In this document: one piece after another, positions 43,755 through 58,825 of the stretch
Numbering within the stretch: position 1 is the first letter of the stretch
Layout of the letters: each line of letters opens with the position of its first letter
Assembly: GCA_963705305.1 (NCBI GenBank)
Contig: OY970067.1
Location: forward strand, 1,216,001 to 1,280,000
Length of the DNA: 64,000 nt
Source of the DNA: an uncultured Methylomirabilota bacterium
Lineage (GTDB): Bacteria; Methylomirabilota; Methylomirabilia; Methylomirabilales; 2-02-FULL-66-22
Direction: 5' to 3'
Made by a program: the position numbers and the translations under genes
Notes under the pieces: model-generated
Database searches by the model: none
What the model was told of the DNA's origin: nothing
Seen by the model: only the letters and a program-made list of their open reading frames with translations

Positions 43755-44057
43755 TGATTGACCCTCCCATAGGTCCAGGACGATTATCGACAGCGTCCGG
43801 GAAGTTACTCACGTCTCTCAAGGGCATGTATGTGTTGGAATAAGCTGAGACACAATGGGGCGAAGCGACAAGATGGCGGTCGCGACGCGACAAGACACTG
43901 ACACAAAGAGAGCGTTTTGCTTGTCATCCTCATAGAGCATGTGATGACTCAGCATGGATAGATAATGTTTGTCGGACCAGCTGAGAGGGAAGCGACTGCC
44001 AGATGACAACAAAATTATCTCCTATTAATTCGATCTTTATGGCTGTAGCTACGAGAT

Positions 44058-44080
44058 ATGTAACATGTAATATGTTACAT
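44058..44080. promoter_or_regulatory. Inverted repeat ATGTAACAT-N5-ATGTTACAT, putative operator
   Basis: Perfect 9-bp arms in the AT-rich region upstream of the operon starting at 43754. Confidence 0.55.
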
Positions 44081-44212
44081 GAATTTAAAAAATCAAGGCA
44101 AATAATCCGAAGGGAAATTGAAAAACTGAGAATTGATGAAGTTAAATAGAAACAAGCTGTTACTGACATTTTGCAAGGAATTTTGTCCAGTGATAGAGTG
44201 ATATTTCTGGAG

Positions 44213-44520
44213 AACCGGTCCTCCCGGCCGGGCGGATACACCACCGATCCGGCCCACCGCCCGCTCGACATGAACGCTTTTGCCTGGCGGCCGGCCCGGC
44301 TGATCCGCTGGGCGGGCACCATCGGGCCGAACACAGCGCGGCTCGTCGCCGCCATGCTGGCGAGCCAGGCCTACCCCGAGCGGGTATATCGCTCCTGCCT
44401 GGGCCTTCTCCGACTGGGGGCCCAGCATGCCGTCGAGGAGATGGAGGCAGCCTGCCATCAGGCACTACGCCGCGGGGCCACGTCGTACAAGGCCGTCGAG
44501 CTGCTCCTCCGGACTCGACG
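44213..44520 (+). mobile_element. IS21-family IstA C-terminal remnant
   Basis: YTTDPAH..W.PARLIRWA..IGP.T...PE..YRSCLGLLRL...EAAC..AL....SYKAV. Confidence 0.75.
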
Positions 44521-44568
44521 GCAGACGAGCGGCCGCTCGGAAACTGCGGCGGCGGGACGGCTGAAGCG

Positions 44569-44859
44569 TCAGACCGTGTGGTCGCGGGAGCGTGCCAGGC
44601 GTCGCAGCGTTGCTCGGTCGCCTGCGACGAGCGTCTCTTTCTTTGCCCGGGACCAGCGCTTGACCTGCGCCTCCCGCTGTCGTGCGGCCGAGCAGGTGGG
44701 CAACTCCTCGATGTAGACGAGGGCGATGGGGGGGTCGAGGCGCGTGGTGCGGCAGGCCTGCCCCGCTCGGTGCTCTGCGTAGCGCCGATCGAGATCGGTG
44801 GTGGCGCCGGGGTAGAGCGCGCCGGAGCGGAGGCGAAGGACGTAGCTCCAGGTCGGCAT
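44569..44859 (-). CDS. Stand-alone GIY-YIG nuclease (UPF0213/YhbQ-like)
   Basis: WSYVL..LYPGAT, RRYAEH, AARQREAQVKRWSRAKK; alternative start at 44874. Confidence 0.88.
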   Translation of the reverse strand: MPTWSYVLRLRSGALYPGATTDLDRRYAEHRAGQACRTTRLDPPIALVYIEELPTCSAARQREAQVKRWSRAKKETLVAGDRATLRRLARSRDHTV

Positions 44860-44861
44860 CG

Positions 44862-44966
44862 GGCCCCTCGACATCGCTCGGGGCCATTTCGCCGCGGCTC
44901 CAGAGGAGCCTTGAGCAAGACGCAAGACGGCGGCAGCACCGTGGTGCCGCCGCCGTCGCGTCGAAA
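44862..44966. repeat. Cluster of REP-like hairpins between the tRNA fragment and the GIY-YIG start
   Basis: GGCCCC-TCGACATCGCTC-GGGGCC; GGCTC-CAGAG-GAGCC; TTGAGCAA-[GACGC..GACGGCGGC..GCCGCCGTC.GCGTC]-GAAA. Confidence 0.65.
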
Positions 44967-45061
44967 TGGCTCCCCGGGTAGGACTCGAATCCGCCTGCGG
45001 CGGATTTCGGCTGGTGCCTCAACCCAACCGAGCGGTTAATCCGCCGACGGCGGACTCGCTC
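44967..45061 (-). pseudogene. tRNA-Asn 3'-half copy interrupted by palindromic inserts
   Basis: First 23 bp identical to 45117-45139; TCCGCC-N3-GGCGGA at the T loop and at the anticodon loop. Confidence 0.75.
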
Positions 45062-45073
45062 CCCCAAAAGCCA

Positions 45074-45101
45074 GGACCCGCAGCGCGTACGCTCCGGGTC
45101 C
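45074..45101 (-). terminator. Hairpin downstream of the tRNA 3' end, terminator-like
   Basis: GGACCCG.AGCG-CGTA-CGCT.CGGGTCC followed by a short T tract on the minus strand. Confidence 0.45.
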
Positions 45102-45116
45102 CTGTCGAGCACCTGC

Positions 45117-45171
45117 TGGCTCCCCGGGTAGGACTCGAACCTACAACCTAGCGGTTAACAGCCTCTCGCTC
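45117..45171 (-). other. 3' portion of tRNA-Asn(GTT), probable island attachment site
   Basis: Minus strand reads GGCTGTTAACCGCTAGGTTGTAGGTTCGAGTCCTACCCGGGGAGCCA; no 5' acceptor strand. Confidence 0.85.
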
Positions 45172-45221
45172 AATGTTGAGCAACCTTTAGAATAAGCTAG
45201 TTACAACATTCAAAAAGGTCG

Positions 45222-45242
45222 GTGGCGGTTTCAGTGGCGGTT
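45222..45242. repeat. GTGGCGGTT direct repeat, putative integrase arm-type sites
   Basis: Two copies 3 bp apart, about 50 bp from the tRNA fragment. Confidence 0.5.
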
Positions 45243-45452
45243 CGTTTTTTCCCCGTGAGCGCGGTATTTTGGTTTTTCGGGAACCACAGGTGTGCCTTGG
45301 CTTACCCGGAGACTTGGGATGCGGATGCCAAGAACGATCTGAGGACACCCAGGTCGTCCACCTCACCTCGCACCTTCGGGCACCTCAATATGACAGCATT
45401 CCCTTACCCACTGGACCAATTTCCGGGGGCAAGGTCACAGAGACATTTGGAC

Positions 45453-45482
45453 TTGACAGGGGTCATATGGTCATATTATAAG
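45453..45482 (+). promoter_or_regulatory. Sigma70-like promoter with a GGTCATAT tandem repeat in the spacer
   Basis: TTGACA...TATAAG upstream of the FadR-type gene. Confidence 0.55.
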
Positions 45483-45508
45483 CATACAACATTTGAAAGG
45501 AGCAGCTG

Positions 45509-46270
45509 ATGCCCCTGGTAGAGCGCGAGGGTCTCCCAGAGAAAGTCATCGCCCAGGTCCGGCACCTCATCGCTTCAGGCCAGTGGCAACCTGGAACCAA
45601 ACTCCCGCCCGAGCGTGAACTGACCACCCTGTTCGGCGTGAGTCGCACGGCTCTCCGAGAAGCCTTCAGCATCCTCTCCGCTTATGGCATTGTCCGTATC
45701 CGTCATGGCGAAGGCATCTATCTTGCCCAATCCCTCGACGAGTCGATCTTTGAGCCCCTCGGTTTTGCTCTGCCTGTCGGCGAGACCACCCTGCTCGAAC
45801 TCATGGCCGTCCGGAAGCTCCTCGAAACAGGCGCGGTGGAGCTAGCGACAAAGCTGGCAACTGAGACCGATCTCGCTGAGATCAAACAGGCAGTCGCCGA
45901 CATCCAGGATAAGCATGCTCCCCTCCAGAAGCGTGTGCAGGCGGGGATTCGCTTCCATGTTGCAATCGTCAAGGCTGCCCGGAACAAGTTGATGCAGCGA
46001 CTCATTGCAAATCTCATCGGCCTCTTCGTTGCGAGCCATCGTGTGACGTTGAGCTTCGAGGAAGGTCAGTTGACAGGTCAACTCGATCACCAAGAGATCC
46101 TCGATGCAATCCAGAGCCGAAATCCCGAAAAGGCCAAACTGGCGATGCGTCGTCATCTCGAGGTGACAGAGCGGCAACTCCTACGGATCATCGCTCCTCC
46201 CACAAAGAGAAAAGGAGCGAAGCGTGAAGCCGGTGCCAGACCGGAACCACAACGGCGTCACGCCGAATGA
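45509..46270 (+). CDS. FadR/GntR family regulator
   Basis: PGTKLPPEREL...GVSRTALREA; RFH; DHQEI. Confidence 0.92.
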   Translation: MPLVEREGLPEKVIAQVRHLIASGQWQPGTKLPPERELTTLFGVSRTALREAFSILSAYGIVRIRHGEGIYLAQSLDESIFEPLGFALPVGETTLLELMAVRKLLETGAVELATKLATETDLAEIKQAVADIQDKHAPLQKRVQAGIRFHVAIVKAARNKLMQRLIANLIGLFVASHRVTLSFEEGQLTGQLDHQEILDAIQSRNPEKAKLAMRRHLEVTERQLLRIIAPPTKRKGAKREAGARPEPQRRHAE

Positions 46271-46575
46271 GTCATGTCAATCACCGGACCTTTTTCTGGG
46301 CAAGGGGCTTCATAGTCCGCAGGAACCAGGACCGATGGCGAGGGCTGCACGTGGGGTGGGCGATCGCTCGCGTCTCCAAGCACGAAGCGGTACGAGCAAT
46401 CTAGCTTTCATCTGGGTACGGGTGGCAGCTTTTCGGCCCCGCCACGTTTCCCTCCGACACGTCTTGAACCTGGGTCGGTGAGTCGGGGGGGCCCCTGAGA
46501 GATAGCGCAAGCGACCCGCAAGCTGGAGGATGGAAGGGAGAGTCCGCCCAATTCACCCAGAAAGGAGGAGCCATC

Positions 46576-47622
46576 ATGAATAGCGAGCGATTGTATGGAT
46601 GGGGCTACAGGTGTCTGGTGGCCATTATGCTAGTGGGGCTAACCATGGGCTATGGCCAAGGGGTGGCCGCGGCCGTGAAGCCCGAATACACCATGCGTTT
46701 CGGAGGGTACCTGGCCGGGAACGACCCAACCAACGTTACCATGAAGAAGATGGCCGACCTGGTTGAGAAGAAGACGAACGGTCGGGCCAAGATCGAGGTG
46801 TTCACTGACGGTTCGCTGGGCAACGAGAAGGAGGTTACGGAGGGGGTCCGGGTGGGAACGGTGGAACTCGTGGCCAGCCTGGGCACTGGCCTGGCACAGT
46901 ACGTGCCGGAGGTTGGCGTCCTGGAGCTTCCCTTCACATCCACGGATAGCCGGGTGGCCACCAAGATGTTCCTGGATGTCATGCCGGACGTGGCCAAGTT
47001 GTCGGTGCCCAAGGGTTTCCGCCCGCTGACCGCCTGGGATATTGGGATGCGGGGGATCCTGACCAAGAAGCCGGTGCGGAGACTGGAGGACCTCAAGGGG
47101 ATGAAGATCCGGGGGCCCGCCCCGCTATATCTCGGCACGCTCCAGGCCCTGGGCGCCAATCCGATCTTCTACGCCTGGACGGACATCTACATGGCGCTGC
47201 TAACCGGTGCCGTGGATGGAATGGAGGCCTCCCCCCAGATGATCTACCCGTCCAAATTTCAGGAGGTCGCTAAGTGCTTCACCGTGAGCCGGCACATTGA
47301 CCCCGGTTACTACCTCTTGATCAACGAGAAATTCTGGGAAAAGCTGCCTCCCGACATCCAGAAGGCCGTCAAGGAGTCGGCGGATGAGGCCTTCTCCTAC
47401 ATCCAAGAGAACGGGGACAAGATCTGGAACGAGTACGCGGAGAAGATGAAGCAGGCGGGGGTGGAGTTCATCGAACTACATGACTATCCGAAGTGGGTCA
47501 AGGCGGTGGAGCAGTTCCGGGTTGACTACGCGAGCAAGCTGGGTCCGGCGGCCCCCCCGCTCTATGAGAAGGTCAAGCAGTCTGTGGCCAAGTGGGAGAA
47601 GTTCTACGGGATCAAGCGGTAG
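46576..47622 (+). CDS. TRAP substrate-binding protein (DctP)
   Basis: Signal peptide, GSLG.E, LELPF, DLKGMKIR, AVDGME. Confidence 0.9.
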   Translation: MNSERLYGWGYRCLVAIMLVGLTMGYGQGVAAAVKPEYTMRFGGYLAGNDPTNVTMKKMADLVEKKTNGRAKIEVFTDGSLGNEKEVTEGVRVGTVELVASLGTGLAQYVPEVGVLELPFTSTDSRVATKMFLDVMPDVAKLSVPKGFRPLTAWDIGMRGILTKKPVRRLEDLKGMKIRGPAPLYLGTLQALGANPIFYAWTDIYMALLTGAVDGMEASPQMIYPSKFQEVAKCFTVSRHIDPGYYLLINEKFWEKLPPDIQKAVKESADEAFSYIQENGDKIWNEYAEKMKQAGVEFIELHDYPKWVKAVEQFRVDYASKLGPAAPPLYEKVKQSVAKWEKFYGIKR

Positions 47623-47712
47623 GACCTCCACCACGTCGGCGAGGATTCCACGGGGGTTCGGTCTGGCACGCCGTGCCCACGCGCCCGATCCTGGAATTTC
47701 CAGAAGGAGTCA

Positions 47713-48930
47713 ATGATGTATGAGTACGAGGTAGTCGCCAATCCAACCTTCGACGATGTCCCTGCCTCGGAATTCCAGGCCCGGGCAGCGAGGCTCCGAG
47801 ATGGCATGCGGCAAAGGAATCTCGACTGCCTGTTCATCTTCGCCTCGTACAGCGAGGCGACCTACGCCCTCTACGTGGGGAACTTCCGTCCGTTCACCAC
47901 GTCTGCAGCCATTATCCTTCCACTGGAAGCGGACCCAGTCATCTTGTCCACCTGGGGGCAACTCGAGGGCGTTCGTAATCAAACCTGGATCCCGAAGATC
48001 CGCTGGGTGGGGGGACTCCTGAGCGATCTGTATGGGGGAAGCACGGCAGAGGCAGAACATACCAACGCTCTGGCAGAGGTGTTCCGGGAATTGCAAATCA
48101 GCCGGATGGGACTCATCAACGAGGCCAAGATCCCCTGGCCGGTCCTGGGGCGGCTCAAGGCCGCTCTACCGGGAGCTCAGTTCGAGGATGCGTCGGATCT
48201 GCTACACCGGATGATGATGACCAAGAGCCCGGCAGAGATTCGACTCCTGCGGCGTGCAGCGGAAATAGGCGACCAGAGCATGGAGCTGGCTTTCGGACTC
48301 ATTGCCCAGGACCGCGAGCGGCTGACCGAGATCGACGTGTGGGCCGCGGTCCAGGCGGCCGTCTTGAAGAAAGGTGCGGAGGTGATGGAGTCCAATTACA
48401 CGGTGGCAGCCGGCCCGCCGGGGATCCCCGGCCGCTGGGCCAGCACCCGACACTTCCGAGAGGGTGACCTCATCCGCCTTGATTTCCACTGCCGCTACAA
48501 GGGTTACTTCAACGACTGTGGGCGCATGGTGAGCCTGGGACCCCTGCCCCCGGAACATGCGGAGATCATGCAGGTCGGTGCAGAGGCTATCCGGCTCGTC
48601 ATGAATCAAATTCATCCAGGCATCCCGGCCAAGGCTGTATACGCGCCTGTGGCCAACTACCTGAAGGGGACTCGGTTCTACCCGTACTTCCAGAACGACG
48701 GTGCGGTTGGACACCACATCGGGACCTTCTTCTATGGCCACTTGGGCTATGGTGGGTTCCTCTTGGACGGCGAGACAGAGGAACTCGTGCAACCCGGCAT
48801 GGTGCTGGCTGCCCGCCTGGCACTTTGGAAGTATGAATATGGACCATTCCTTATCGAGACCTCGGTTCTAGTCACGGAGGAGGGTCTGGAGCCTCTCAAC
48901 AAGGTTAGTCTCGCGCCAATGCAGCTATGA
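47713..48930 (+). CDS. M24 (Xaa-Pro peptidase/creatinase) family hydrolase
   Basis: KSPAEI, D..YKGYFND.GR, GHHIG, PGMV. Confidence 0.85.
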   Translation: MMYEYEVVANPTFDDVPASEFQARAARLRDGMRQRNLDCLFIFASYSEATYALYVGNFRPFTTSAAIILPLEADPVILSTWGQLEGVRNQTWIPKIRWVGGLLSDLYGGSTAEAEHTNALAEVFRELQISRMGLINEAKIPWPVLGRLKAALPGAQFEDASDLLHRMMMTKSPAEIRLLRRAAEIGDQSMELAFGLIAQDRERLTEIDVWAAVQAAVLKKGAEVMESNYTVAAGPPGIPGRWASTRHFREGDLIRLDFHCRYKGYFNDCGRMVSLGPLPPEHAEIMQVGAEAIRLVMNQIHPGIPAKAVYAPVANYLKGTRFYPYFQNDGAVGHHIGTFFYGHLGYGGFLLDGETEELVQPGMVLAARLALWKYEYGPFLIETSVLVTEEGLEPLNKVSLAPMQL

Positions 48931-49034
48931 CCGAGTTTTGACGTGCCTCCGTCGGGTCCTGTGCCCTTCCCGAGGCCTTCTCCCCACGAGAGAAACGAGG
49001 GTTTCAGGCAAACATCAGCCAGGGAGAGCAGCCC

Positions 49035-49900
49035 GTGAGTCTCGAACAAGTCCAGCAGGTAATCTGTCAAATCACGACCCGTTTCGATAAGAGGGGGATG
49101 GCCTTTCTACCCCCGCTGAAGGGGGATCGGACTGCTCTTGTCGACAGCAGTGCAGCCGCCTCTCCCGGGGGCCTGATCCAACCAGCGGTAGCCGAGGTCG
49201 ATTTATCCCCCAGGGAATTGGACCTGATCCTGAACACGCACGCTTATCTGGATCATGTGGGGGGAGCAACCGGGAAATCCAGTCTGTCTCCGGCGCCTGA
49301 ATTCATCTCCACCCGGCGGGGTCTGCCGATAGCGTAATCGAATGAGGCACAAGTGGAGTTCCACACGGCCCCGTAAGGGCCATTCGGTTTCCCCCGGAGG
49401 CGGTGGAGGAGCAGACGGAGTTCGTCTTCCTAAACGCCGGCATGCTGGTGAGCCCGGATGTCCTCCTCAACGACGCTGATACCATCGACCTTAGGACAGG
49501 CGAGGTCCTCCAAGTCATCCATTGTCCAAACCGCCAGCCCCGGCCATGCGGCCTACTCCTGGGAGGCGGAAGGGATCTTGCTGACGGGTGATGCCGTTCC
49601 AGGCCTGGGAGCCTTCCCGAGAGGCTACTGCTATTACTTTGACGCGACCGCATATCAGCGGTTGCTGGAAAGGCTGCAGGGGATCCCGTGCTAAGCAGTG
49701 TGTTTCGGCCATGCCTCCCATGGGGCCACGTTGATCAACTGGCCCACGGGCAAGGGACAGGAGGTATAGACGGTCCTGCAGGACTCGGTTGCAGCGGCGG
49801 GTGCAATTCGCCAAGCTGTGGCCGCGGCCATGAATCGTCTGCCCCCCGGGGCAAGCGTGGGATTGCTCTGGCCGCCTTCGCAGATTGGATTGAAGGGGTA
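49035..49900 (+). pseudogene. Degraded MBL-fold metallo-hydrolase
   Basis: ALVDS, ILNTHAYLDHVGG, SPGH, LLTGDA spread over several frames. Confidence 0.7.
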
Positions 49901-49949
49901 CTTGCTGGCAGTTCTCCGGGGTAGGGAAGCTCGGACTGGGGAAGACGCG

Positions 49950-51869
49950 ATGGCGATGGGACAGATGGAGAGGGTAGAACAGGGCCAGGTGATTGGCCAG
50001 GAAAATCAGCGTGGACCTTACCGCAGATTCCTCTCCTTCCATCCGGCGATGGCGATTGACGTGACTCTCAAGACTGTTCTGGCCTTGGCAGTTCTCAGCG
50101 AGCTTGGAGTGATCTTCTTCAGCATCCTGAGTCGCTCGCTCTTTGGCAGGCCCTGGAATTGGACCAATGAAGTGGCGGAGTTGGCCCTCTCGACGATCGC
50201 CTTCTTAGGAGGGGCCTTCGCCTACCGGCGTGGTCAACACGCCTTCATCCGCATGCTGATCGACGCCTTGCCGCTTAGGTACCGCCGCGCCTGCTACGCG
50301 CTGGTCGAACTCCTCGTCCTCGCGGTCGCGATCACGACCGGACTGAACGGTTTCCCACTCCTCGTTGCCCAATGGGACGAATTCACATTAGTCCTCCGGA
50401 TGCGCGCGACTTGGTTCGCGCTCCCGCTCGTGGCCAGCATGGGCATACTCGCCGTGACCGCGATTGAGCGACTTGTCGCCCAGCACCGTCCGACCGTGCT
50501 CGCTGTGGGGACCGCGTTCTCCACTCTTGTCCTCATCCTCGCGCTGGCGCGTAATGTATGGCGGCCCTGGTTTACCAGCGACGCCGCCCTCACCCTTGCA
50601 CTCTGCCTCTTCCTCTTCACCATCCTGATCGGACTACCCGTCGGCTTTGCGCTGCTCCTCGGTGCCCTCGCCTACATCTATGCGTCCGGCACGGTGCCGA
50701 TGATCGCGCTCGCCACCAGCACACTTAGGGGGGTCGGTAGCTTCGTGCTCCTCGCTATTCCCTTCTTCATCTTTGCAGCCATGATCATGGAGCAGGGCGG
50801 CATCAGCCTGCGTCTGGTGCGCTTGGTTCAGGCGTGTGTCGGCCATTTCCGTGGCGGACTCCTCCAGGTGATGGTTGTGAGCATGTACATCGTCTCCGGC
50901 CTGTCTGGCTCGAAGTCGGCCGACATTGCTGCCGTGGGTTCGGTCATGCGCGAGATGCTGCGCCGGCAAGGCTACAGCCTCGAGCAGGCTACGGCCGTAC
51001 TCGCGGCTTCGGCTGCAATGGGCGAGACCGTGCCCCCGAGCATAGCCATGCTGCTCCTCGGCGCAGTCACGACGCTCTCTATCGGGGCGCTCTTCCTAGC
51101 CGGCCTCATCCCAGCGGCGCTAGTCGCGATCTGCCTCATCGCGCTGATCTATTTCCAGGCCCGGCGGTCACAGAGTCAGCGCGCGCCCCGCGCTAGCCTC
51201 CGGGAGCTCGCGAGGGCAGGCGTCGAGAGCGTGTTGCCGTTCTTTATGCTGGTGATTCTCTTCGGCGGCATCATTCTCGGGATTGCCACACCGACCGAAG
51301 TCTCCTCCTTCGCGGTAGTTTACGGCCTCGTGCTTGCCGGCTTCATTTACCGCGGCTTTGGCGTTCGAGCATTCGTGCGCATTGCGATAGATTGCGCGAC
51401 GGCGTCCGGCATGATCCTCTTTATTCTGGCTGCGGCCTCGAGTTTCTCGTGGACGCTCACCATTGCCCACCTGCCCCAACGCCTCGTCGGCGTCCTGACC
51501 GGCGCGCATCAGAGCCAATGGCTGTTCTTGCTCGCGTCGATCCTGCTCCTTATTATAGCCGGCTCGATTCTCGAAGGCTTACCCTCCCTCCTCATCCTAG
51601 CGCCGATTCTGATGCCCATCGCGAGTCAAGTCGGCGTAAACGAACTTCATTATGGCATCGTCCTCATAATCGCCATGGGAATCGGGACCTTTATACCGCC
51701 GATCGGTGTTGGCTTCTATGTTACCTGTGCCGTCTGCGAGACAACAATTGAGAAATCGGCGCGAGCAATGATTCCGTACGTGGTCGTGTTGTGCGTTGGG
51801 GTCTTGCTGGTAGCGCTAGTGCCGTGGTTCACTCTGTTCCTACCTGCGCAATTCCATTTCGGCGGCTGA
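49950..51869 (+). CDS. TRAP fused permease (DctQM), paralog of 29805-31703
   Basis: SGLSGSKSAD, VPPS, ATPTE, PPIG; start uncertain. Confidence 0.9.
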   Translation: MAMGQMERVEQGQVIGQENQRGPYRRFLSFHPAMAIDVTLKTVLALAVLSELGVIFFSILSRSLFGRPWNWTNEVAELALSTIAFLGGAFAYRRGQHAFIRMLIDALPLRYRRACYALVELLVLAVAITTGLNGFPLLVAQWDEFTLVLRMRATWFALPLVASMGILAVTAIERLVAQHRPTVLAVGTAFSTLVLILALARNVWRPWFTSDAALTLALCLFLFTILIGLPVGFALLLGALAYIYASGTVPMIALATSTLRGVGSFVLLAIPFFIFAAMIMEQGGISLRLVRLVQACVGHFRGGLLQVMVVSMYIVSGLSGSKSADIAAVGSVMREMLRRQGYSLEQATAVLAASAAMGETVPPSIAMLLLGAVTTLSIGALFLAGLIPAALVAICLIALIYFQARRSQSQRAPRASLRELARAGVESVLPFFMLVILFGGIILGIATPTEVSSFAVVYGLVLAGFIYRGFGVRAFVRIAIDCATASGMILFILAAASSFSWTLTIAHLPQRLVGVLTGAHQSQWLFLLASILLLIIAGSILEGLPSLLILAPILMPIASQVGVNELHYGIVLIIAMGIGTFIPPIGVGFYVTCAVCETTIEKSARAMIPYVVVLCVGVLLVALVPWFTLFLPAQFHFGG

Positions 51870-51888
51870 GGTATCGTGCACACCCACC

Positions 51889-53135
51889 TGACCTCCGCAA
51901 ATATTCTCGTACATGAGTCACGCCACCAACCGCTCGAGGCCATACTCGTGGTGCAGGCCGCCAAGAATCGATCGCGCCACGACCCGCATGTCTCGCGGGA
52001 GATGATGCCCGGCGATCGGCGCGACCGGGAGCCCGGGCGGCGGGGCCGGCAAACCGGGCCCGAGGGATGGATGAGGGCGGCCCCGGTTATACTGGACTTG
52101 CCACAAGCGAAGCACGCGGCGCACGTGCTCCTCCCCGAACGGGATCAGGAACTCCAAGCATTCCCGGCGTAGAGAACCCAGCAGTCGCTCGCAGGGCGCG
52201 TTCGCCGTCGGCGCCTGGGCGGGCGTTCGGAGGACCCGGACGCCCATCGCGGGCACCACGGCATCGAGCCCCGCCGAATAGATGCTGTCCCAGTCATGGA
52301 GGATGAACCGATAGGCGTGCGGTGCGGCGAGGATCTCCCGGAACTGCTGTAAGGTCCACGCGGCAGTCGGGTGGGCGGTAACATTGACGTGCACGAGCCG
52401 GCGGCTGCCCACCTCAAGCGCCACGAAGACGTAGAGGACTCGGAACGTTGCGGTCACCGCGACGCAGAAGTCGCAGGCAACGACGGCGTGGGCGTGGTTG
52501 CGGACGAAGGTGGGCCACCGCTGCCCGCTTGCGCCGACCGGGTCCCCGTCCCCGCCCCTCGCGCGGTCCAGGTCCCGGCGGACGGTGCGGGGCGACACCC
52601 GGATCCCAAGCTTGAGCAGCAACTCCGCCGCAATCCGCTCTTCGCCCCACGTCGGATTGTCCCGGGCCATGGCGGCGATCAGGCGTTGCAGCTCCGCGGG
52701 GAGCGGGGGGCGTCCCGGGCGCGACCGCCAGCGCCAGAGCAGGCGGAACGCCTGGCGGTGCCAGCGGATCAGGGTGGCCGGCTGGACGATCGTGAGCGCC
52801 TCGCGCCAGGCGAACCATCGCGCGAGGAGGACGAGCGTGAGCCGGAGCGGGTCCGACGCCCGCCGGGGGTTCCCCGGCCGCTCGCGGTAGAGGGCCAGCT
52901 GTTTCCGGAGGAAAAGATTCTCGGCGGCCAGGCCGTCCGCGATCGGAGGCTGGTCTGCACGAACCGCACGAGATCGATCGCGAGCCCGACCAGAACGCGG
53001 GCACAGTGACCGCATGGCTGTAGAGGTTGCATAAGCTCGGATTCCCCTCTTTCAGGCGTGAATTGGTGATACCAATGAGGGCGGGGAAGTTTAGCAGGGC
53101 GGCGCGGGGTGCGGATCAATTATTTGCGGACGACA
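51889..53135 (-). mobile_element. rve/DDE element copy 2; transposase 51918-53032 frameshifted near 52932
   Basis: Ends TGTCGTCCGCAAATAA / TGACCTCCGCAAATAT; long identical blocks shared with copy 1. Confidence 0.8.
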
Positions 53136-53343
53136 GGACCGACATAGGGATGGTCACCACCAGCGAGTAGGGCAGGATGTACAGGAAGAGCCGGAGGACC
53201 GTCCAGATCCCGACGCCCTTGTTGACGATCAACTCGACCAGGCGAAGGATGTTATTCGTCAGAAGGACGAAGGTGAAAATCATGAGGCCGAGGCCGAAGG
53301 CCATCCCCATCTCTTTCAGCATGGCGCGATCTATGAGCGTCAT
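53136..53343 (-). pseudogene. lptF: LptF/LptG permease 5' fragment truncated by the IS
   Basis: IDR..LKE....F.LGL.IFTFVLL....LVELIVNKGV......LP..L..TIPMSVL stops at the IS end. Confidence 0.75.
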
Positions 53344-54058
53344 GTCGATTCCCCATGCTCAGGCCGAAGATGCGCGGAGATTCTATTTATGAAATTGGGG
53401 GTGGGCCAACAGTTTCTTGATGTATTTCTTTGATGTAATGTTGCAGTAATGTTCCTGCAAGGTTTCGTGCTCCCGGTGAGGTGGTTCATTTGTGAGGAAC
53501 GCGGCGGTGGAGCGACCGACCGGAGGCCAGCTAGCTGGACCAGACTTGGCGCCCGATCAATGTTATGCCTGCCGGCACATGGGGGTCTTTGAGCGCACCT
53601 TCCCTTCTATCCAGCCGGATTCTATTTGGAAGACAGGAGATTCACCCTTCATGGGGGAGCCATGCGGGACTCGAATGTGCAACCGCGCGGTGCGCTACGC
53701 CAGCAGGCCGCGGTGGCTGGGGAGCGCCAGGGGTAGTGGCTCGCGCTCCCCGCCGTTGGGTGCCGGGGTGGGAAGCAATCGAGAGGAGAACCAGGGTCGC
53801 ACGCGGTGATTTTGTATCACTCCCAGGAGGTCTTCTTGCTATCTCTCCACGTTTTCTGTATTCTCGATTCGCTACAGGCATCGGGCTGAAAGGCGCTGTG
53901 TGGTCGCCGGCCCTGGAGCCCCTCTTCCCGCACCTGGCGCGACGGCGCCTCGACCGGGGGGCTGCAGAGCCCTTGAGACATCCACCGAGGGCGGGTCAGG
54001 GGAAGGGCCAATCGCGCGTCCCAAGGCGTACCGATACCGAGGAGAGCGAGGAAGCAGC

Positions 54059-54312
54059 ATGACGATGAAGGCCGCCGCTCGCCACGCATTGTTGGGGTGC
54101 CTGGTGTTGTTGCTGGTGGCACCGCCCGGCGCCCTGGCGCAGGCTCCCCCCCCGCCCCCCGCGGGTGCCCCGGCTCCGCCGACCTTCTACGCGGAAGAGC
54201 TGGATCAGCTCCTGGCGCCGATTGCCCTGTATCCCGATGCCCTCCTGGCGCAGATCCTGATGGCGGCCACCTACCCGCTGGAGGTGGTCGAGGCCGCCCG
54301 CTGGGTCCGCCC
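54059..54312 (+). pseudogene. DUF3300-type secreted protein 5' fragment
   Basis: ELDQLLAPIALYPDALLAQILMAATYPLEVVEAARW, then runs into IS701 sequence. Confidence 0.78.
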
Positions 54313-54314
54313 CG

Positions 54315-54670
54315 GCCAAGTACTGGGTGGCCGACCTCCGCGGCGAGCCCCTGGGCCTCCGCCGGCTCGTGCCCCTGGCGAAAGGTCGCTGGCGGATCGA
54401 GCAGGAGTTCCGGGAGTTGAAGGACGAACTCGGGCTCGATCACTTCGAGAGCCGCTCCCGGACCGGCTGGCATCACCACGTGACCCTCGTGAGCATGGTG
54501 TACACGTTCCTCATGCTCGAGCGGGCCCGCGCCAAAAAAACCTCGCAGCCGACGTTGCCCCAGATCCGGCGGCAGCTCCAGCAGCTGCTCCTCCAGCTGG
54601 GTGAGTGGTGTCCGTAGTGTGGTTCGCGGTTAGAGTGCGACACGTCATATACTTAACGTAGTAATACTGG
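54315..54670 (+). mobile_element. IS701-family transposase 3' remnant
   Basis: RWRIEQEFRELKDELGLDHFE.RS..GWHHHVTL. Confidence 0.82.
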
Positions 54671-54699
54671 CCCCTTGCGGGCGGAAAGGATGGCCGAAC

Positions 54700-55365
54700 T
54701 TGGTGCAAGCATCAGGGATCTCCGCAGAGGCGATGGCGCTCCTCAAAGAAGCGACAACAGGCATGGTCAACGATGCCTTGGCCCTGGCTGGGATCCAGGG
54801 CAGCGTGGTCGGCATTCGGCCGGCTCGCGGCTTCGAGGACACCAAGATTATCGGGCCTGCCTCGACGGTCTTTCTAGCCCCGCCGCATCCGGATACGCCG
54901 GCGGCCAGCATGTACGGCACGATCCGGGAGCAGACGGCGGGGAACGTGCTTGTCATCGATGGGGGCGGATGGGACGCCAACTTCACGGGGGATAACAACG
55001 GGGAATGCGCCCGGCGCCAGGGCTTAGTTGGGGTCATCGTGAACGGCGGCGCGCGAGATGTGGCCGGATTCCGGGCCATCGGGTTCCCGCTCTTCTGCAG
55101 GGGACCGGAAACGCGTATTGGAAAAGTTCAGATCACCGGGGTCAATCTCCCCATCGAGGTGGGGGGAGTGACCATCCGGCCGGGGGACATCATCGTGGCC
55201 GATGAGGATGGTGTTGTGTCTATTCCGGCCAGTCAACTTTCGGCGGTCCTCGGCCATCTGCCGACCATTTTCGATGTGGAACGCGGCATGGAAAACGCCC
55301 TCAAGCGGCACGCGCCGGTGCCGGAGATCACCGCGATATTGGCTCGGAAAAAGCCGAGGAATTAA
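54700..55365 (+). CDS. RraA / HMG-aldolase family protein
   Basis: VLVIDG, G.RD, IRPGDIIVADEDGVV. Confidence 0.88.
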   Translation: MVQASGISAEAMALLKEATTGMVNDALALAGIQGSVVGIRPARGFEDTKIIGPASTVFLAPPHPDTPAASMYGTIREQTAGNVLVIDGGGWDANFTGDNNGECARRQGLVGVIVNGGARDVAGFRAIGFPLFCRGPETRIGKVQITGVNLPIEVGGVTIRPGDIIVADEDGVVSIPASQLSAVLGHLPTIFDVERGMENALKRHAPVPEITAILARKKPRN

Positions 55366-55675
55366 GCCGGCTAGTCATCCGCCTGGAGAGGAGCCTTGGA
55401 CGTGGGCGAAGCTAGGGCGAGCACTTCCGGGCCGGGACCGGGTCGTGTGCGGAATCGGACAACCGTGGGATTCGTTGCCCTTCGGGTCGGGGAATCCGTG
55501 ATTGAACGGGCGTCTCAGAGGGAAAGGGGGAGGAAACGAGGCGACACTTGTTCGTGGCGAGCGTGATCCTGACCGTAGCGGTCCTGATTGCCATGGCCCT
55601 CGTCGTTCCCTAAATTGATTGAAAGAGCGACAACCACGACGAACGAAAGGCGGATAGAGGCAGGGGAGGAAACCG

Positions 55676-56866
55676 ATGCGATACGACCTACTCCTAAAAA
55701 ACGGAACGGTGATAGACCCGAAGAACAATCGATACGAGCGGCTGGACGTCGCCGTACGGGACGGTCGAATTGCCGCGGTTCAGAAAGTGATTGCTGAGGC
55801 AGATGCGGTAGAGGTCATCGATGTCGCCGGCCGATTTATTACGCCGGGTCTCATCGACGCCCACCTGCATGTCTACTGCAATTCCTGCGATTTGGGCATG
55901 CATACGGACATCATATGCGCGCCCAGCGGTGTCACGACGGTGTGCGACGGAGGGAGCGCGGGTGCCCTTGCATTTCCGGGATTCCGAGAGTTGATCGAAC
56001 GCGCGCTCCGTGTCCGCTGCAAAGCGTTCCTCAATCTCTCCTTGATCGGCATCACAGGTGTCGAGGTGGCGGGCGAATTGACCAACCCAAAGTACGCCGA
56101 TCGCGAAGCTTGCGTTCGCACAATCTGTCAAAACCGCGATCTCCTCATCGGAGTGAAACTGCGGTTGGGACCCGACGTCACTTGGAACCCCTTGGAAGCC
56201 CTGCGGGTCGCCCGCGCAACCGCGGATGCCGCCGACGTGCCCCTCATGGTACATGTGACGAATTGCCCGTTGCCGCTCCCCACCGTGCTGGAGCATCTTA
56301 GATCCGGGGACGTGTTGACCCACCCCTTTCACAACTTCACGCATGGCATCCTGAATCAGGCGCGCACGGCTATTCTCGAACCGGTGTGGGAAGCGCAAAA
56401 ACGAGGCGTGTGGTTTGACTCGGCGCATGGGCGCATGGGCCATTTCAACTTCGGCATCGTCCGGAAGGCGCTCGACCTTGGCTTCCTGCCGGACGTGATC
56501 ACGACCGATCTGAGCCTTCCGAGTGCGTTGTCTGGGCCTGTTTTCGACTTGGCTACGACTATGTCTAAGTTTCTCGCTCTCGGCATGCCGCTGCCAGAGA
56601 TCATTTTGCGCACTACTGCTAATCCTGCGAAATTGCTAGGGCTGGCAGGCGAGCTAGGCCATCTGAGCGTCGGCGCACTTGGAGACATCGCGATCCTCGA
56701 GGTGCAGGATGGTGAGTTCGAGTTCACGGATACCGACAATAATACCATGAAAGGGCAGAAACATATCATAGCGGTTCAGACGTTCAAACAGGGGCGCATG
56801 TGGTATCGAGCGGGGGAAAAAGCAGGGGCAACGAACCGGAAGAGGCGAGCTTTCCTGGCCTTCTAA
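55676..56866 (+). CDS. Dihydroorotase-like amidohydrolase/deacetylase
   Basis: PGLIDAHLH, GVKLR, MVH, LTH, TTD, PAKLLG. Confidence 0.88.
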   Translation: MRYDLLLKNGTVIDPKNNRYERLDVAVRDGRIAAVQKVIAEADAVEVIDVAGRFITPGLIDAHLHVYCNSCDLGMHTDIICAPSGVTTVCDGGSAGALAFPGFRELIERALRVRCKAFLNLSLIGITGVEVAGELTNPKYADREACVRTICQNRDLLIGVKLRLGPDVTWNPLEALRVARATADAADVPLMVHVTNCPLPLPTVLEHLRSGDVLTHPFHNFTHGILNQARTAILEPVWEAQKRGVWFDSAHGRMGHFNFGIVRKALDLGFLPDVITTDLSLPSALSGPVFDLATTMSKFLALGMPLPEIILRTTANPAKLLGLAGELGHLSVGALGDIAILEVQDGEFEFTDTDNNTMKGQKHIIAVQTFKQGRMWYRAGEKAGATNRKRRAFLAF

Positions 56867-57099
56867 GAAAACCGACTGCCCGGTGACAGGCACGAGTTGG
56901 AAGCCGAGGGCCCGGGCTTGTGCATGGAGTCGTGACTCCGTTCGCTGGCGGTATACACGTTCTGCCTGCGCGAGCTAGCTCCCGGCGTACAGGCCTCGCC
57001 CGTGGCCAGCAGCTGGCAGACGATCCCTGCACTTGTGGGCGGTAGCAATGACCGCCTGGGGGGTGCCGAGTGCGCGCAGCCTCCAATTGTGTTGAAGCT

Positions 57100-57945: not shown

Positions 57946-57984
57946 TTTCGACGCTCCTTCGCCTACCTCCCCTCCCAAGAGTGT

Positions 57985-58720
57985 CAAGGGAGCGGGAACT
58001 CCGGACAGTAATGGTCGATCTTTGCGATGTGCATCCACGTCATCCGAAAGTCGAACGCCCAATGAATAGTCACCTTCACTTTGTTGCTCATACCATCTAG
58101 CCCGGCGCCGGCGAACCGGAGGCCGGTCCACGCTGAGATACCATCGAGCTATGCTTGGAGGGACCTTGCCATCTTCACGAACGGGGCAGCTTGCTGTATA
58201 GCCTGCCCGCTGGAGCCCTCGTTGAATCGATAGTTCCAGAACCGCCGGGGCACCCCTTGAGCAGTGGCGCCCGCACGATGGGCGGTTTAGGTGGAGGGCC
58301 CCCCGGGAAACGAGTTCGCTCTGTCCTCATATTCTCTGAGTTCTTCAGCCAGAGGGGCCACATACGCGTGCAGGTGGGCCACTCGGGCTCCGCCAGCTGC
58401 CGCCACATCTCCCGGTGGGTGGGTCACCCGCTGCCACTTCTCGACCCAGGGCACTCGCTTGCACCCAAAGGCCACAAATCAGACACCTCACCCCCCGCGG
58501 GGCGTAGACGAGCTAGAGAGGCTGGTGCCCTGAGGTGAGTCCCTACCCGCGATACCCGTGGCTGCGGATCGACGTCACCTTGGGGCCGGGCAGGCATTCG
58601 ATGTGGGCAATCAGACCTCCATTAAGGAGCTCCTCGGTCTATGCCTCGGTATGCTCTTTCGTTCCGAGCAATTTCCCGTTAAGCCCTTCCAAGCCCATCG
58701 GGTCTGGACCTCCGCTCTCT
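57985..58720 (-). mobile_element. Internally deleted, degraded ISL3-family element
   Basis: Minus-strand fragments VPWVEKWQRVT, LWLKN, PFVKMARSL..LDGI.AWT...LDGMSNKVKV..H.AF.FR; ends approximate. Confidence 0.65.
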
Positions 58721-58825
58721 CGATAGCGATTTCAGAGAAGGATGACCAACCCACCCTCGCCATTCTCCTCTTTGTCACTACACCTTCAGACAGTTTAGGG
58801 TAGCATCCCATTATTCATGCAGTCC

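What the first reader, a model, noticed from the sequence alone, without database searches (positions are those of the whole stretch)
44967..45061. Near-identical 15-bp palindromes placed precisely in the T loop and anticodon loop of a tRNA copy
Seen: compared with the clean copy (..ACTCGAA CCTA CAACCTAGCGGTTAA CAGCCT CTCGCTC), this copy reads ..ACTCGAA TCCGCC-TGC-GGCGGA TTTCGGCTGGTGCCTCAACC CAACCGAGCGGTTAA TCCGCC-GAC-GGCGGA CTCGCTC. Both hairpins follow an AA dinucleotide, have the same 6-bp arms with different 3-nt loops, and replace a few tRNA bases rather than adding a target duplication. Inference: two targeted events by a mini palindromic element with a preference for tRNA loops, or a structured tRNA-derived ncRNA.
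Basis: partly seen in the sequence, partly recalled or inferred. Interest (0 to 1): 0.75.

Follow-up and report, generated by a model that had tools for sequence, protein, structure and literature searches.

The report
Hairpin-capped remnant of split tRNA-Asn gene
The two palindromes sit in the left-over back half of this bacterium's original tRNA-Asn gene, which was split by a small nuclease-plus-spare-tRNA cassette whose hallmark is to replace tRNA loops in the left-over pieces with short GC hairpins, a design seen in several bacterial phyla.

Summary
Two TCCGCC-N3-GGCGGA palindromes (44990-45004, 45040-45054) lie in a minus-strand tRNA-Asn 3' fragment. One replaces 6 nt at the anticodon. 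The other is part of a 33-nt insertion in front of the T loop.

They are not copies of a dispersed MITE. The genome holds 15 such palindromes, and 5 of them lie in tRNA-Asn-derived fragments.

Comparing filled and empty sites within the genus shows that this fragment, with its downstream terminator and gene, is the original chromosomal tRNA-Asn 3' half. A cassette split the gene at the anticodon arm. The cassette carries a ~100-aa GIY-YIG nuclease gene, its own working tRNA-Asn and a terminator, and is bounded by the 30-nt unit GAGCGAG-hairpin-TTAACCGC. A ~90-kb island later inserted into the cassette's tRNA and carried the nuclease gene 90 kb away.

The same 30-nt unit flanks GIY-YIG genes at tRNA-Asn in 49 genome records from Planctomycetota, Methylomirabilota and Chloroflexota. 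About a third of the pseudo-3' halves there also carry a T-loop hairpin. tRNA-Asp cassettes carry different hairpins with the same TCC...GGA ends.

What the hairpins do is inferred, not shown: a nuclease recognition site, or protection of the left-over copy from cutting. Seven literature searches found no description. The closest known systems are SegB and the Ssn/SRM nucleases.

The parts
44569..44859 (-). Small GIY-YIG gene of the UPF0213/YhbQ type, 96 aa. It is the native downstream neighbour of tRNA-Asn and not the cassette nuclease.
   Evidence: Translation. Pfam PF01541, 1.1e-11. It is 38% identical to a cassette nuclease, E 1e-8. The same gene follows the single, unsplit tRNA-Asn of relative G014.
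44915..44966 (-). Native hairpin just downstream of the original tRNA-Asn 3' end; it looks like a terminator.
   Evidence: DNA fold -23.0 kcal/mol, z -5.2. It is collinear with the hairpin after the tRNA-Asn of G014.
44967..44989 (-). Original tRNA-Asn 3' end: T loop, T-stem 3' strand, acceptor 3' strand and CCA. All 23 nt are identical to the working gene.
   Evidence: Collinear with the G014 tRNA-Asn and its downstream flank.
44990..45022 (-). 33-nt insertion in front of the T loop. Its 3' end is the first palindrome (44990-45004). With its flanks (44986-45009) it forms a 10-bp stem with one bulge that pairs up the T-loop bases TTCG.
   Evidence: Alignment to the gene. Pattern match. Fold -9.1 kcal/mol, z -3.1. 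Inverted-repeat pair I1. A homologous insertion is present in relative G003.
45023..45039 (-). tRNA-Asn positions 34 to about 52 (TTAACCGCTCGGTTGGG): the last two anticodon bases, the 3' anticodon-stem strand, the variable loop and a shortened T-stem 5' strand.
   Evidence: One A-to-C change relative to the gene improves pairing with the insertion.
45040..45054 (-). Second palindrome, TCCGCC-GTC-GGCGGA on the tRNA strand. It replaces CGGCTG of the anticodon arm and is the right-end hairpin of the inserted cassette.
   Evidence: The same 30-nt unit occurs in 49 genome records and at both ends of the cassette in G003.
45055..45062 (-). GGAGCGAG, a copy of the tRNA bases just 5' of the anticodon arm. 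It is the left flank of the conserved 30-nt unit.
45063..45116 (-). Spacer with a hairpin followed by CTTTTGG. It looks like the terminator of the cassette-borne tRNA-Asn.
   Evidence: Fold -15.5 kcal/mol, z -3.1. G003 has a different hairpin spacer in the same place. The simple terminator scan did not call it.
45117..45171 (-). The 'clean copy': 55 nt matching tRNA-Asn positions 21-75 (98%). It is the 3' part of the cassette-borne tRNA, cut off from its 5' part when an island integrated (attR-type fragment).
45172..45290 (-). Far end of the ~90-kb island that now separates this region from the working tRNA-Asn. The genome holds 5 copies of this end sequence.
   Evidence: BLAST of the window region against the genome. 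Alignment of the five ends. An integrase and a resolvase lie 4-5 kb from the tRNA.

Best explanation
**What it is.** The hairpin-bearing 'tRNA copy' is the displaced 3' half of the ancestral chromosomal tRNA-Asn gene, still in its native position.

**History.**
- A small selfish cassette split that gene at the anticodon arm. The cassette consists of a hairpin unit, a ~100-aa single-domain GIY-YIG nuclease gene, a complete spare tRNA-Asn, a terminator and a second hairpin unit.
- The spare tRNA keeps the cell supplied. The two halves of the old gene remain as pseudo-tRNAs, each capped by the unit GAGCGAG-TCCGCC-N3-GGCGGA-TTAACCGC.
- The palindrome at 45040-45054 is the right-end cap.
- The palindrome at 44990-45004 belongs to a 33-nt insertion that is, with its flanks, an inverted copy of the first hairpin region. 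Together they lock the stretch from the anticodon arm to the T loop into one rod-like hairpin.
- Later a ~90-kb integrase island inserted into the cassette's own tRNA-Asn. It left the 'clean' fragment, the cassette terminator and the old 3' half in this window, and the nuclease gene and working tRNA 90 kb away.

**Shown:** the anatomy, the filled versus empty sites, the spread across phyla, and the link to GIY-YIG genes and tRNA genes.

**Inferred:** how the cassette moves and what the hairpins do.
- Movement: the nuclease cuts the anticodon-arm region of an unoccupied tRNA-Asn gene, and repair copies the cassette in, using the tRNA halves as homology arms.
- Hairpins: they either make the left-over copies uncuttable and useless as tRNA, or they are the site the small nuclease binds, as hairpins are for Ssn nucleases.
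For: **1. Empty versus filled sites.**
- In relatives G004 and G014 the order is GTPase-like gene, promoter, one tRNA-Asn.
- In G014 that tRNA is followed by TTTCGACGCG, a hairpin and a UPF0213-type GIY-YIG gene. This is collinear with the window from the T loop of the hairpin copy downstream (mean column identity 82% over the whole alignment).
- In G000 the same GTPase-like gene and promoter are followed by a pseudo-5' half, a GIY-YIG ORF at C1 1351034-1351492, and the working tRNA-Asn. The ORF scores profile E 2e-34 and Pfam PF01541 4.2e-15, and is 67% identical to the G003 ORF.
- G003 shows the unbroken layout: pseudo-5' with hairpin, ORF, tRNA-Asn, hairpin spacer, then a homologue of the hairpin copy, 85% identical.

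**2. The 30-nt unit across phyla.**
- The unit occurs in 49 genome records (70 instances) from three phyla.
- 42 of the 49 records have a GIY-YIG domain on the same strand, and 38 of 49 have an ARAGORN tRNA-Asn on the same strand.
- In all 15 records with 2 or more units, the units lie on one strand.

**3. Patchy distribution.** The unit is in 6 of 251 genomes of the phylum (5 of 21 in the genus). The reversed control pattern gave 0.

**4. The nuclease family sits at tRNA genes.** Of 30 loci fetched with a profile of 10 cassette nucleases, 16 have a same-strand tRNA within 300 nt (Asn, Asp and others), and 2 more are cut off by contig ends.

**5. Hairpin caps are a family trait, not copies of the local stem.** tRNA-Asp cassettes replace the whole anticodon arm with GTCCGCGC.../TCCCGCGCC... 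hairpins, and one locus has TCCCGA/TCGGGA. All share TCC...GGA ends.

**6. Second hairpins at the T loop recur in several designs.** By my reading, 17 of the 48 units that have a 3' acceptor strand carry one.

**7. The hairpin is specific to tRNA-Asn remnants in this genome.** None of 15 fragments of other tRNAs has one.

**8. Loop bias.** Loops on the tRNA strand favour GNA over TNC, 32 to 9 among 70 locus-loop combinations. The loci are related, so this is only suggestive.
Against: - No activity of the nuclease is known, and mobility is inferred only from filled and empty sites and the patchy distribution.
- The working tRNA inside the cassette still carries the presumed target sequence. Simple homing with target loss does not explain stability, although it could explain the tandem arrays.
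- In G000 the left-end hairpin has decayed, and the ORF has no canonical start codon at the usual distance from its Shine-Dalgarno-like GGGGAGG. The local copy may be inactive.
- The published Ssn-related motif does not match these hairpins: 0 matches in the window, and 1 in 132,687 bp of the 49 records, which is about the genome's background rate.
- Units with the anticodon-side hairpin also lie at the far ends of three integrase-type island copies. One of these (C1 3014677-3014772) is 99% identical to the window copy, with different flanks. I could not reconstruct how they got there.
- The 49 records were picked by exact match to the unit, so their identical arms prove nothing. The unbiased N15 scan found only 14 tRNA-context units: 12 with exact arms and 2 with one change.
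Confidence: 0.75

Rival explanations
1. A free mini palindromic element (MITE/REP-like), TCCGCC-N3-GGCGGA, inserts by itself in front of TT dinucleotides. It hit the anticodon loop and the T loop in two separate events.
For: - The same 15-mer sits as an extra piece in 3 of 38 aligned copies of an abundant ~200-bp intergenic repeat. The family consensus lacks it there, and other copies carry a different hairpin at that place.
- In all three contexts it is followed by TT.
- A graded series exists in the genome: fragments with 0, 1 or 2 hairpins.
Against: - The genome has only 15 copies. With the 7 copies that belong to repeat families set aside, 8 remain, a count that 31 of 384 arms of the same composition reach. 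Those 8 are unique, unrelated sites.
- There are no target duplications; tRNA bases are replaced.
- None of 15 fragments of other tRNAs carries it.
- In other phyla the unit sits at cassette boundaries together with its conserved flanks GAGCGAG and TTAACCGC.
- This rival overlaps with the best explanation if the hairpin is the nuclease's own mobile site.
Confidence: 0.12
2. The hairpins are part of the attachment site of the integrase-type islands that target tRNA-Asn, and the hairpin copy is an old attR scar.
For: - Three of five island far ends in this genome run into GGAGCGAG-hairpin-TTAACCGC.
- The region is a tandem array of islands, with an integrase and a resolvase nearby.
Against: - The window copy has no island end upstream. 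It follows a terminator-like spacer, as in G003.
- Its 3' part and downstream flank are the native tRNA-Asn context seen in G014.
- The units in the other phyla flank ~0.3-kb GIY-YIG ORFs, not islands.
- None of 15 att-type fragments of other tRNAs has a hairpin.
Confidence: 0.06
3. The 96-nt piece is a working structured RNA derived from tRNA-Asn, such as a decoy, regulator or processing signal. The hairpins are kept for RNA structure.
For: - The fold is very stable (z -5.1).
- It is conserved in G003 and in a second genomic copy.
- Triloops of the stable GNA type are favoured on the sense strand.
- In the related cassettes of G017 and relatives the 3' acceptor strand doubles as a Shine-Dalgarno-like GGGGAGG in front of the nuclease ORF.
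Against: - It lies behind a terminator-like hairpin, and the scan found no promoter-like site in 44400-45600.
- There is no Rfam family at or near threshold.
- The stability follows directly from the palindromes.
- Only 3 homologous sequences exist, too few for a covariation test.
Confidence: 0.07

Closest known systems
SegB of phage T4/T6, a free-standing GIY-YIG homing endonuclease in the phage tRNA gene cluster (PMC2330249, abstract read; PMC13096335, abstract seen in the search listing only)
   Same: - It is a GIY-YIG nuclease gene lodged among tRNA genes.
[quoted passage not shown]
- It drives inheritance of itself together with neighbouring tRNA genes.
- The 2026 paper reports that it promotes segmental amplification, which recalls the tandem arrays seen here.
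   Different: - SegB is a phage enzyme and, as I recall, has an extra DNA-binding part. The nucleases here are ~85-105-aa single-domain proteins in bacterial chromosomes.
- The abstract read reports no splitting of a tRNA gene, no spare tRNA carried as rescue and no hairpin-capped pseudo-tRNAs.
Ssn family of site-specific single-stranded DNA nucleases with NTS/SRM hairpin repeats (Chenal et al. 2025, PMC11893778; sections 6, 7, 8, 10, 12, 17 and 18 read)
   Same: - It is a ~94-aa single-domain GIY-YIG protein.
- The gene is typically flanked on both sides by 20-50-nt hairpin repeats in one orientation.
- Both the sequence and the structure of the hairpin matter.
- The authors note that the layout looks like a mobile element.
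   Different: - The published degenerate SRM motif does not match these hairpins.
- The paper's main text never mentions tRNA.
- SRMs can number in the hundreds per genome, against 15 palindromes here.
- Membership of the nuclease in CDD family cd10448 could not be tested. Its best matches among solved structures are UPF0213 proteins.
Integrative islands and prophages that insert into tRNA genes and carry a replacement 3' part of the tRNA (general knowledge, recalled)
   Same: The self-rescue logic is the same: the element brings the tRNA sequence that restores the gene, and the displaced original piece stays behind as a fragment. This genome has many such fragments.
   Different: The cassette has no integrase and is only about 0.4-0.5 kb long. 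It carries a GIY-YIG nuclease, and the left-over pieces are capped by conserved hairpins, which none of 15 ordinary fragments here show.
IS200/IS605 transposases and REP-associated transposases, which recognise DNA hairpins (as discussed in PMC11893778, section 12)
   Same: A small gene is bracketed by short hairpins that the enzyme would read on single-stranded DNA. Solo hairpins can spread.
   Different: The enzyme family differs (HUH versus GIY-YIG). Strand transfer is not known for GIY-YIG enzymes, and those elements show no link to tRNA genes of this kind.

Membership tests
Functional tRNA gene | Cloverleaf with both acceptor strands, an anticodon loop and a T loop, detectable by tRNA finders | tested here: not met
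   ARAGORN finds 0 genes in the window. Rfam gives no tRNA hit on 44967-45062. The 5' acceptor strand and D arm are absent, and the anticodon is replaced.
MITE / REP-like dispersed palindromic element | Many dispersed copies in the genome, above background | tested here: not met
   There are 15 copies. Five are in tRNA-Asn fragments and 2 in one other repeat family. The remaining 8 are no more than 31 of 384 composition-matched arms reach.
MITE / REP-like dispersed palindromic element | Insertion with target-site duplication or a fixed target | tested here: inconclusive
   There is no duplication, and 6 nt are replaced at the anticodon. All three kinds of context are followed by TT.
Ssn nuclease / SRM hairpin system | Single-domain GIY-YIG protein of about 94 aa | tested here: met
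   The cassette ORFs have PF01541 as their only strong Pfam domain. The aligned core is ~90 aa.
Ssn nuclease / SRM hairpin system | Hairpin repeats matching the published SRM search sequence on both sides of the gene | tested here: not met
   The SRM pattern gives 0 matches in the window and 1 in the 49 records (7.5 per Mb, against 12.4 per Mb in the genome). Hairpin units of another sequence do flank the gene on both sides in G003 and in several Planctomycetota records.
Ssn nuclease / SRM hairpin system | Membership of CDD family cd10448; single-strand-specific cleavage next to the hairpin | not testable with these tools
   No CDD library is on hand and no assay is possible. The closest solved structures are UPF0213 proteins 1ywl and 1zg2.
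Free-standing GIY-YIG homing endonuclease (Seg-like) | GIY-YIG gene present in some genomes and absent from the same site in close relatives (filled and empty sites) | tested here: met
   Empty in G004 and G014. Filled in G000, G003, G017 and G018. G005 has another cassette subtype and G010 an ORF-less unit.
Free-standing GIY-YIG homing endonuclease (Seg-like) | The enzyme cuts the empty site, and the gene is copied in by repair | not testable with these tools
   Inference only.
Integrase att-site fragment (attR) | tRNA 3' fragment directly joined to an island end | tested here: not met
   This holds for the clean copy (45117-45171 plus the island end at 45172-45290). It does not hold for the hairpin copy, whose upstream flank is a terminator-like spacer.
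Group I intron in a tRNA anticodon loop | Intron ribozyme fold between the tRNA halves | tested here: not met
   Rfam with the permissive E-value threshold over 44000-46000 gave no intron family. The cassette carries a whole tRNA gene and a terminator.

The most novel reading that the evidence does not exclude
The conserved hairpin unit (flank-TCC...GGA hairpin-flank) is the recognition site of a hairpin-reading, single-strand-specific mini GIY-YIG nuclease. That nuclease mobilises a new class of bacterial transposable element.
- The element is a cassette that targets the anticodon-arm hairpin of a specific tRNA gene.
- It carries its own replacement tRNA, so the insertion is harmless.
- It caps the left-over halves with its own hairpins, which can also spread alone. 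An example is the 3 copies inside the abundant intergenic repeat of this genome.

This would be a tRNA-specific branch of the Ssn-type nucleases, and would give those enzymes a natural role as selfish-element enzymes.
Probability: 0.25. Interest if true: 0.85.

Novelty: new variant of a known kind. Interest (0 to 1): 0.68.

Why it matters
If the reading is right, a very small selfish element of roughly 0.4-0.5 kb has found a way to invade an essential single-copy gene in distant phyla without harming the host. The element is one nuclease gene, a spare tRNA or tRNA half, and hairpin caps.

Four consequences follow.
- It would explain the odd pseudo-tRNA arrays that sit next to real tRNA genes and confuse annotation.
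- It would give the newly described hairpin-reading mini GIY-YIG nucleases a natural biological context.
- The nuclease-hairpin pairs differ between tRNA-Asn and tRNA-Asp cassettes. They could yield a set of small sequence- and structure-specific DNA cutters.
- For this genome, it sorts out the history of a complicated tRNA-Asn locus: a cassette, then tandem islands.

Tried and rejected
- **RNA evidence.** No RNA holder was listed for 44400-45400.
- **Rfam.** The permissive E-value threshold gave only sub-threshold chance hits on the hairpin copy, such as VA RNA at 25.9 bits against a gathering score of 62.
- **Plasmid collection.** Only ordinary tRNA-Asn genes matched.
- **The window's own GIY-YIG gene as the cassette nuclease.** Rejected. 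It is the UPF0213 type, it follows the unsplit tRNA-Asn in G014, and 9 other contexts of its homologues hold no tRNA or tRNA-Asn fragment.
- **Hairpin arms as a 'zipped-up' copy of the local anticodon stem.** Rejected. tRNA-Asp cassettes use arms unrelated to the Asp anticodon stem.
- **Hairpins as SRMs in the published sense.** Rejected by the motif test.
- **Long 'intron-containing' tRNAs called by ARAGORN as further hairpin-bearing pseudo-tRNAs.** The four genuinely over-long calls (87-98 nt) look like false calls in GC-rich, apparently coding sequence.
- **Covariation test of the long hairpin.** Not attempted beyond inspection, because only three homologous sequences exist.
- **The second genomic copy and the island ends.** I could not reconstruct how the hairpin units at 3014677 and at the island ends at 1210257 and 1199930 arose.
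- **Literature.** Seven searches found no description of GIY-YIG cassettes with hairpin-capped pseudo-tRNAs. The library lacks most subscription journals. I did not open the supplements of the Ssn paper, and they may list homologues next to tRNA genes.
Full report
**1. The observation**

TCCGCCTGCGGCGGA lies at 44990-45004 and TCCGCCGACGGCGGA at 45040-45054. These are the only two matches to TCCGCC-N3-GGCGGA in 64 kb. Shuffles expect 0.04, and none of 100 reached two.

Both 'tRNA copies' lie on the minus strand, and both are fragments.
- ARAGORN finds no tRNA in the window.
- Rfam's tRNA model hits only the clean copy at 45126-45185 (33.1 bits) and not the hairpin copy.

The window is contig C1 1216001-1280000 of a 5.65-Mb genome with 66% G+C. 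Its single tRNA-Asn(GTT) gene lies at c[1350953,1351027], 90 kb to the right.

Alignment to that gene shows three things.
- The hairpin copy runs from GGAGCGAG (45062) to CCA (44967).
- The anticodon-side palindrome replaces CGGCTG, linear positions 28-33, which include the first anticodon base.
- The other palindrome ends a 33-nt insertion (44990-45022) placed between the T-stem 5' strand and the T loop. The last 23 nt are identical to the gene.

The two palindromes with their flanks are 21-nt inverted repeats, 86% complementary. The 98-nt piece folds best as one long hairpin in which the two palindromes pair with each other: RNA -55.7 kcal/mol, z -5.1; DNA -29.6 kcal/mol, z -4.2. In this lineage the T-loop insertion therefore looks like an inverted copy of the first hairpin region.

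**2. Is it a dispersed element?**

It is not.
- The genome holds 15 copies of the palindrome. Among the 384 possible arms of the same composition, the mean is 3.0 and this arm ranks second.
- Five copies lie in tRNA-Asn-derived fragments: the two here, two in a 99%-identical second copy at 3014677-3014772, and one at 1210293. A sixth fragment at 1199930 has TCTGCC/GGCAGA, changed on both sides so that the pair is kept.
- Two more copies belong to one abundant intergenic repeat family.
- The other eight are unique, ordinary sites. A count of eight is reached by 31 of the 384 arms.
- The genome has many 3' fragments of other tRNAs, the usual scars of integrated islands. None of the 15 I looked at has such a hairpin at its junction.

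**3. What the hairpin belongs to**

Relatives gave the lead. In G003, G017 and G018 the unit GAGCGAG-TCCGCC-N3-GGCGGA-TTAACCGC follows the 5' part of a tRNA-Asn copy. A ~100-aa ORF with GIY-YIG motifs comes next, and then the real tRNA-Asn.

A scan of one genome per species found the exact unit in 49 records, 70 instances in all. The record titles name Planctomycetota (Phycisphaerae, Planctomycetaceae, Pirellulales, Sedimentisphaerales, Kuenenia), Methylomirabilota, and Chloroflexota/Dehalococcoidia.
- 42 of the 49 have a GIY-YIG domain on the same strand.
- 38 of the 49 have an ARAGORN tRNA-Asn on the same strand.
- In all 15 records with several units, the units lie on one strand.

The commonest layout is: working tRNA-Asn, then the nuclease ORF beginning a few bases later, its last codons (..GRASPPxAD, stop) running through the hairpin unit, and then a 3' half of tRNA-Asn. 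Other records have tandem arrays of 5' halves, each ending in the unit, directly upstream of the real gene.

These 49 records were chosen by exact match, so their identical arms are not evidence of conservation. An unbiased scan of metagenomes (GAGCGAG-N15-TTAACCGC) returned 121 loci. Most were chance matches. Fourteen were in tRNA context, 12 with exact arms and 2 with one change.

Within the window's own phylum the unit is patchy: 6 of 251 genomes, 5 of 21 in the genus, with a reversed control pattern at 0.

**4. The history of this locus**

The genome does carry the cassette nuclease. A profile built from the cassette ORFs hits C1 1351034-1351492 (E 2e-34), directly upstream of the working tRNA-Asn. 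That ORF has Pfam GIY-YIG at 4.2e-15 and is 67% identical to the G003 ORF. It is preceded by a tRNA-Asn 5' half whose hairpin has decayed, a promoter-like TTGCGG...TATAGT, and a GTPase-like gene.

The same GTPase-like gene and promoter stand directly in front of a single, unsplit tRNA-Asn in G004 and G014. In G014 that tRNA is followed by TTTCGACGCG, a strong hairpin, and a UPF0213-type GIY-YIG gene. This is exactly what follows the hairpin copy in the window (44966 down to 44569). The two stretches align from the T loop onwards.

So the 3' part of the hairpin copy and everything downstream is the native tRNA-Asn context. The hairpin copy is the old gene's 3' half. The 5' half at 1351397 is its other piece.

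Between them lay the cassette: hairpin unit, ORF, complete tRNA-Asn, terminator-like spacer (45063-45116; fold -15.5 kcal/mol), GGAGCGAG and a second hairpin unit. G003 still shows that layout unbroken, including a homologue of the 33-nt T-loop insertion.

In G000 an island of about 90 kb then integrated into the cassette's tRNA.
- The clean copy (45117-45171; 98% to positions 21-75) is joined to an island end that occurs five times in the genome.
- The sequence after the working tRNA is 90% identical to the sequence after the fragment at 1210257.
- An integrase and a resolvase lie 4-5 kb from the tRNA.

**5. Hairpin caps are a family trait**

A profile of ten cassette nucleases finds relatives in 23 of 251 genomes of the phylum. 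Of the 30 loci fetched, 16 have a same-strand tRNA gene within 300 nt. ARAGORN names nine or ten as Asn, five as Asp, one as Pro and one as Arg. Two more loci are cut off by contig ends.

- In the tRNA-Asp cassettes the left-over 3' half has its whole anticodon arm replaced. The replacements are GTCCGCGCG-GCG-CGCGCGGAC, GTCCGCGC-CGTCT-GCGCGGAC or TCCCGCGCC-TGAG-GGCGCGGGA.
- One further locus (ARAGORN calls it tRNA-Pro; its intact copy reads as Asp) has TCCCGA-N7-TCGGGA.
- These arms are unrelated to the Asp anticodon stem, so the hairpin is not a re-paired local stem. All of them, like the one here, begin with TCC and end with GGA.

Second hairpins at the T loop are also common. Of 84 distinct tRNA-Asn units, 48 include a 3' acceptor strand. 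Of those, 26 have an intact T arm. By my reading of the printed sequences, 17 have a GC hairpin in or in place of the T loop. The designs vary: TCCGCC/GGCGGA, TCCGCC/GGCGGG, CCCGCC/GGCGGG, TTCGCC/GGCGAA and TCCCGAT/ATCGGGA.

The 3-nt loops vary freely, with 24 different triplets. They favour the stable GNA type on the tRNA strand, 32 GNA to 9 TNC among 70 locus-loop combinations. The loci are related, so this is a hint and not a test.

**6. How it most likely works**

Shown:
- the anatomy;
- the filled and empty sites;
- the patchy distribution within the phylum and the spread across phyla;
- the link between this nuclease family, tRNA genes and hairpin-capped left-overs.

Inferred:
- The nuclease opens the anticodon-arm region of an unoccupied tRNA gene.
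- Repair copies in the cassette from an occupied genome, with the highly conserved tRNA halves serving as homology arms. This would also explain movement between phyla.
- The spare tRNA makes the insertion harmless.

For the hairpins I see two readings that do not exclude each other.
- **(a) Protection.** They remove the sequences that a tRNA-reading nuclease or the tRNA machinery would recognise. SegB, for example, reads the T-psi-C stem-loop motif (PMC2330249, abstract). The left-over copies would then be neither cut nor used.
- **(b) Recognition site.** They are the site that the small single-domain nuclease binds on single-stranded DNA, as shown for Ssn nucleases and their flanking hairpins (PMC11893778, sections 7, 8 and 12). 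Four points fit (b): the conserved flanks, the shared TCC...GGA ends, the direct orientation at both ends of the cassette, and the sense-strand loop bias.

Two points count against a simple version.
- The published SRM motif does not match.
- The working tRNA inside the cassette still carries the presumed target.

**7. Comparison with what is known**

Seven full-text searches found no paper describing such cassettes. The closest systems are SegB, the Ssn/SRM nucleases and tRNA-targeting integrative islands; details are in the comparison fields. The Ssn paper's main text does not mention tRNA.

Earlier notes of this scan describe the same design at tRNA-Val, Arg, Gln, Lys, Asn, Asp, Tyr and Ala genes in other phyla. 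I used them as leads only. The lead to the Ssn family came from them, and I tested it here.

**8. Verdict**

It is explained as the capped 3' remnant of a tRNA-Asn gene split by a GIY-YIG/tRNA cassette.

Still open:
- the enzyme's activity;
- the role of the hairpins;
- how hairpin units came to lie at three island ends and in three copies of an unrelated repeat.

Noticed in passing
G000 contig C1 812880-813100 and 3812189-3812404 (outside the window); many further copies: An abundant ~200-bp intergenic repeat made of several hairpins, with at least 80 BLAST hits in the genome. Thirty-eight hits span one particular site, where the consensus reads CTGC-GGCG-TTGG. Three of these copies carry TCCGCC-GCA-GGCGGA there (one as CCCGCC), and about nine carry a different hairpin (GAGACCCATCC-TTCG-GGATGGGT).
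   Followed up: partly
window 44569-44859 (-): A UPF0213/YhbQ-type GIY-YIG gene is the native downstream neighbour of tRNA-Asn in both G000 and G014. It is 38% identical to the cassette nucleases. It may be an older, domesticated relative. Its other homologues in the genus are not next to tRNA genes.
   Followed up: partly
G000 contig C1 1199930-1351027; window 45172-64000 is part of it: A tandem array of related islands sits at tRNA-Asn. The islands share a near end (90% identity over 160 nt) and a far end (5 copies, containing repeats of CGAACCGCCAC). Three far ends run into the hairpin unit. One far end at 4780387 carries an unmodified anticodon-arm piece.
   Followed up: partly
G000 contig C1 3014677-3014772: A second copy of the whole hairpin-bearing fragment, 99% identical to the window copy. 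It is joined upstream to an island far end and has a different downstream flank, near two tRNA-Val(CAC) genes. How it got there is unexplained.
   Followed up: partly
L009 (G005), about 1150-1500: A different cassette subtype upstream of tRNA-Asn in a genus relative. It has a pseudo-5' half followed by a longer C-rich/G-rich hairpin and a more distant GIY-YIG ORF.
   Followed up: no
L022, L058, L062 and G000 C1 1351300-1351400: In the Methylomirabilota cassettes of G003, G017 and G018, an in-frame ATG in the D loop of the pseudo-5' half would give the nuclease a conserved basic N-terminal tail (MVERVRxRRINR...) read through the hairpin. In G000 this ATG and hairpin have decayed, and an in-frame ATG lies in the decayed hairpin instead. 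In Planctomycetota the hairpin is read in another frame as the C-terminal ..GRASPPxAD.
   Followed up: no
L218 1740-1880 and L236 (tRNA-Asp cassettes): The left-over tRNA-Asp 3' halves also carry a 40-70-nt hairpin-rich insertion between the T stem and the acceptor 3' strand.
   Followed up: no
G000 contig C1 825145, 1490791, 3105582, 3270185: ARAGORN calls four 87-98-nt 'tRNAs with introns' in GC-rich sequence that looks coding. They look like false positives.
   Followed up: yes
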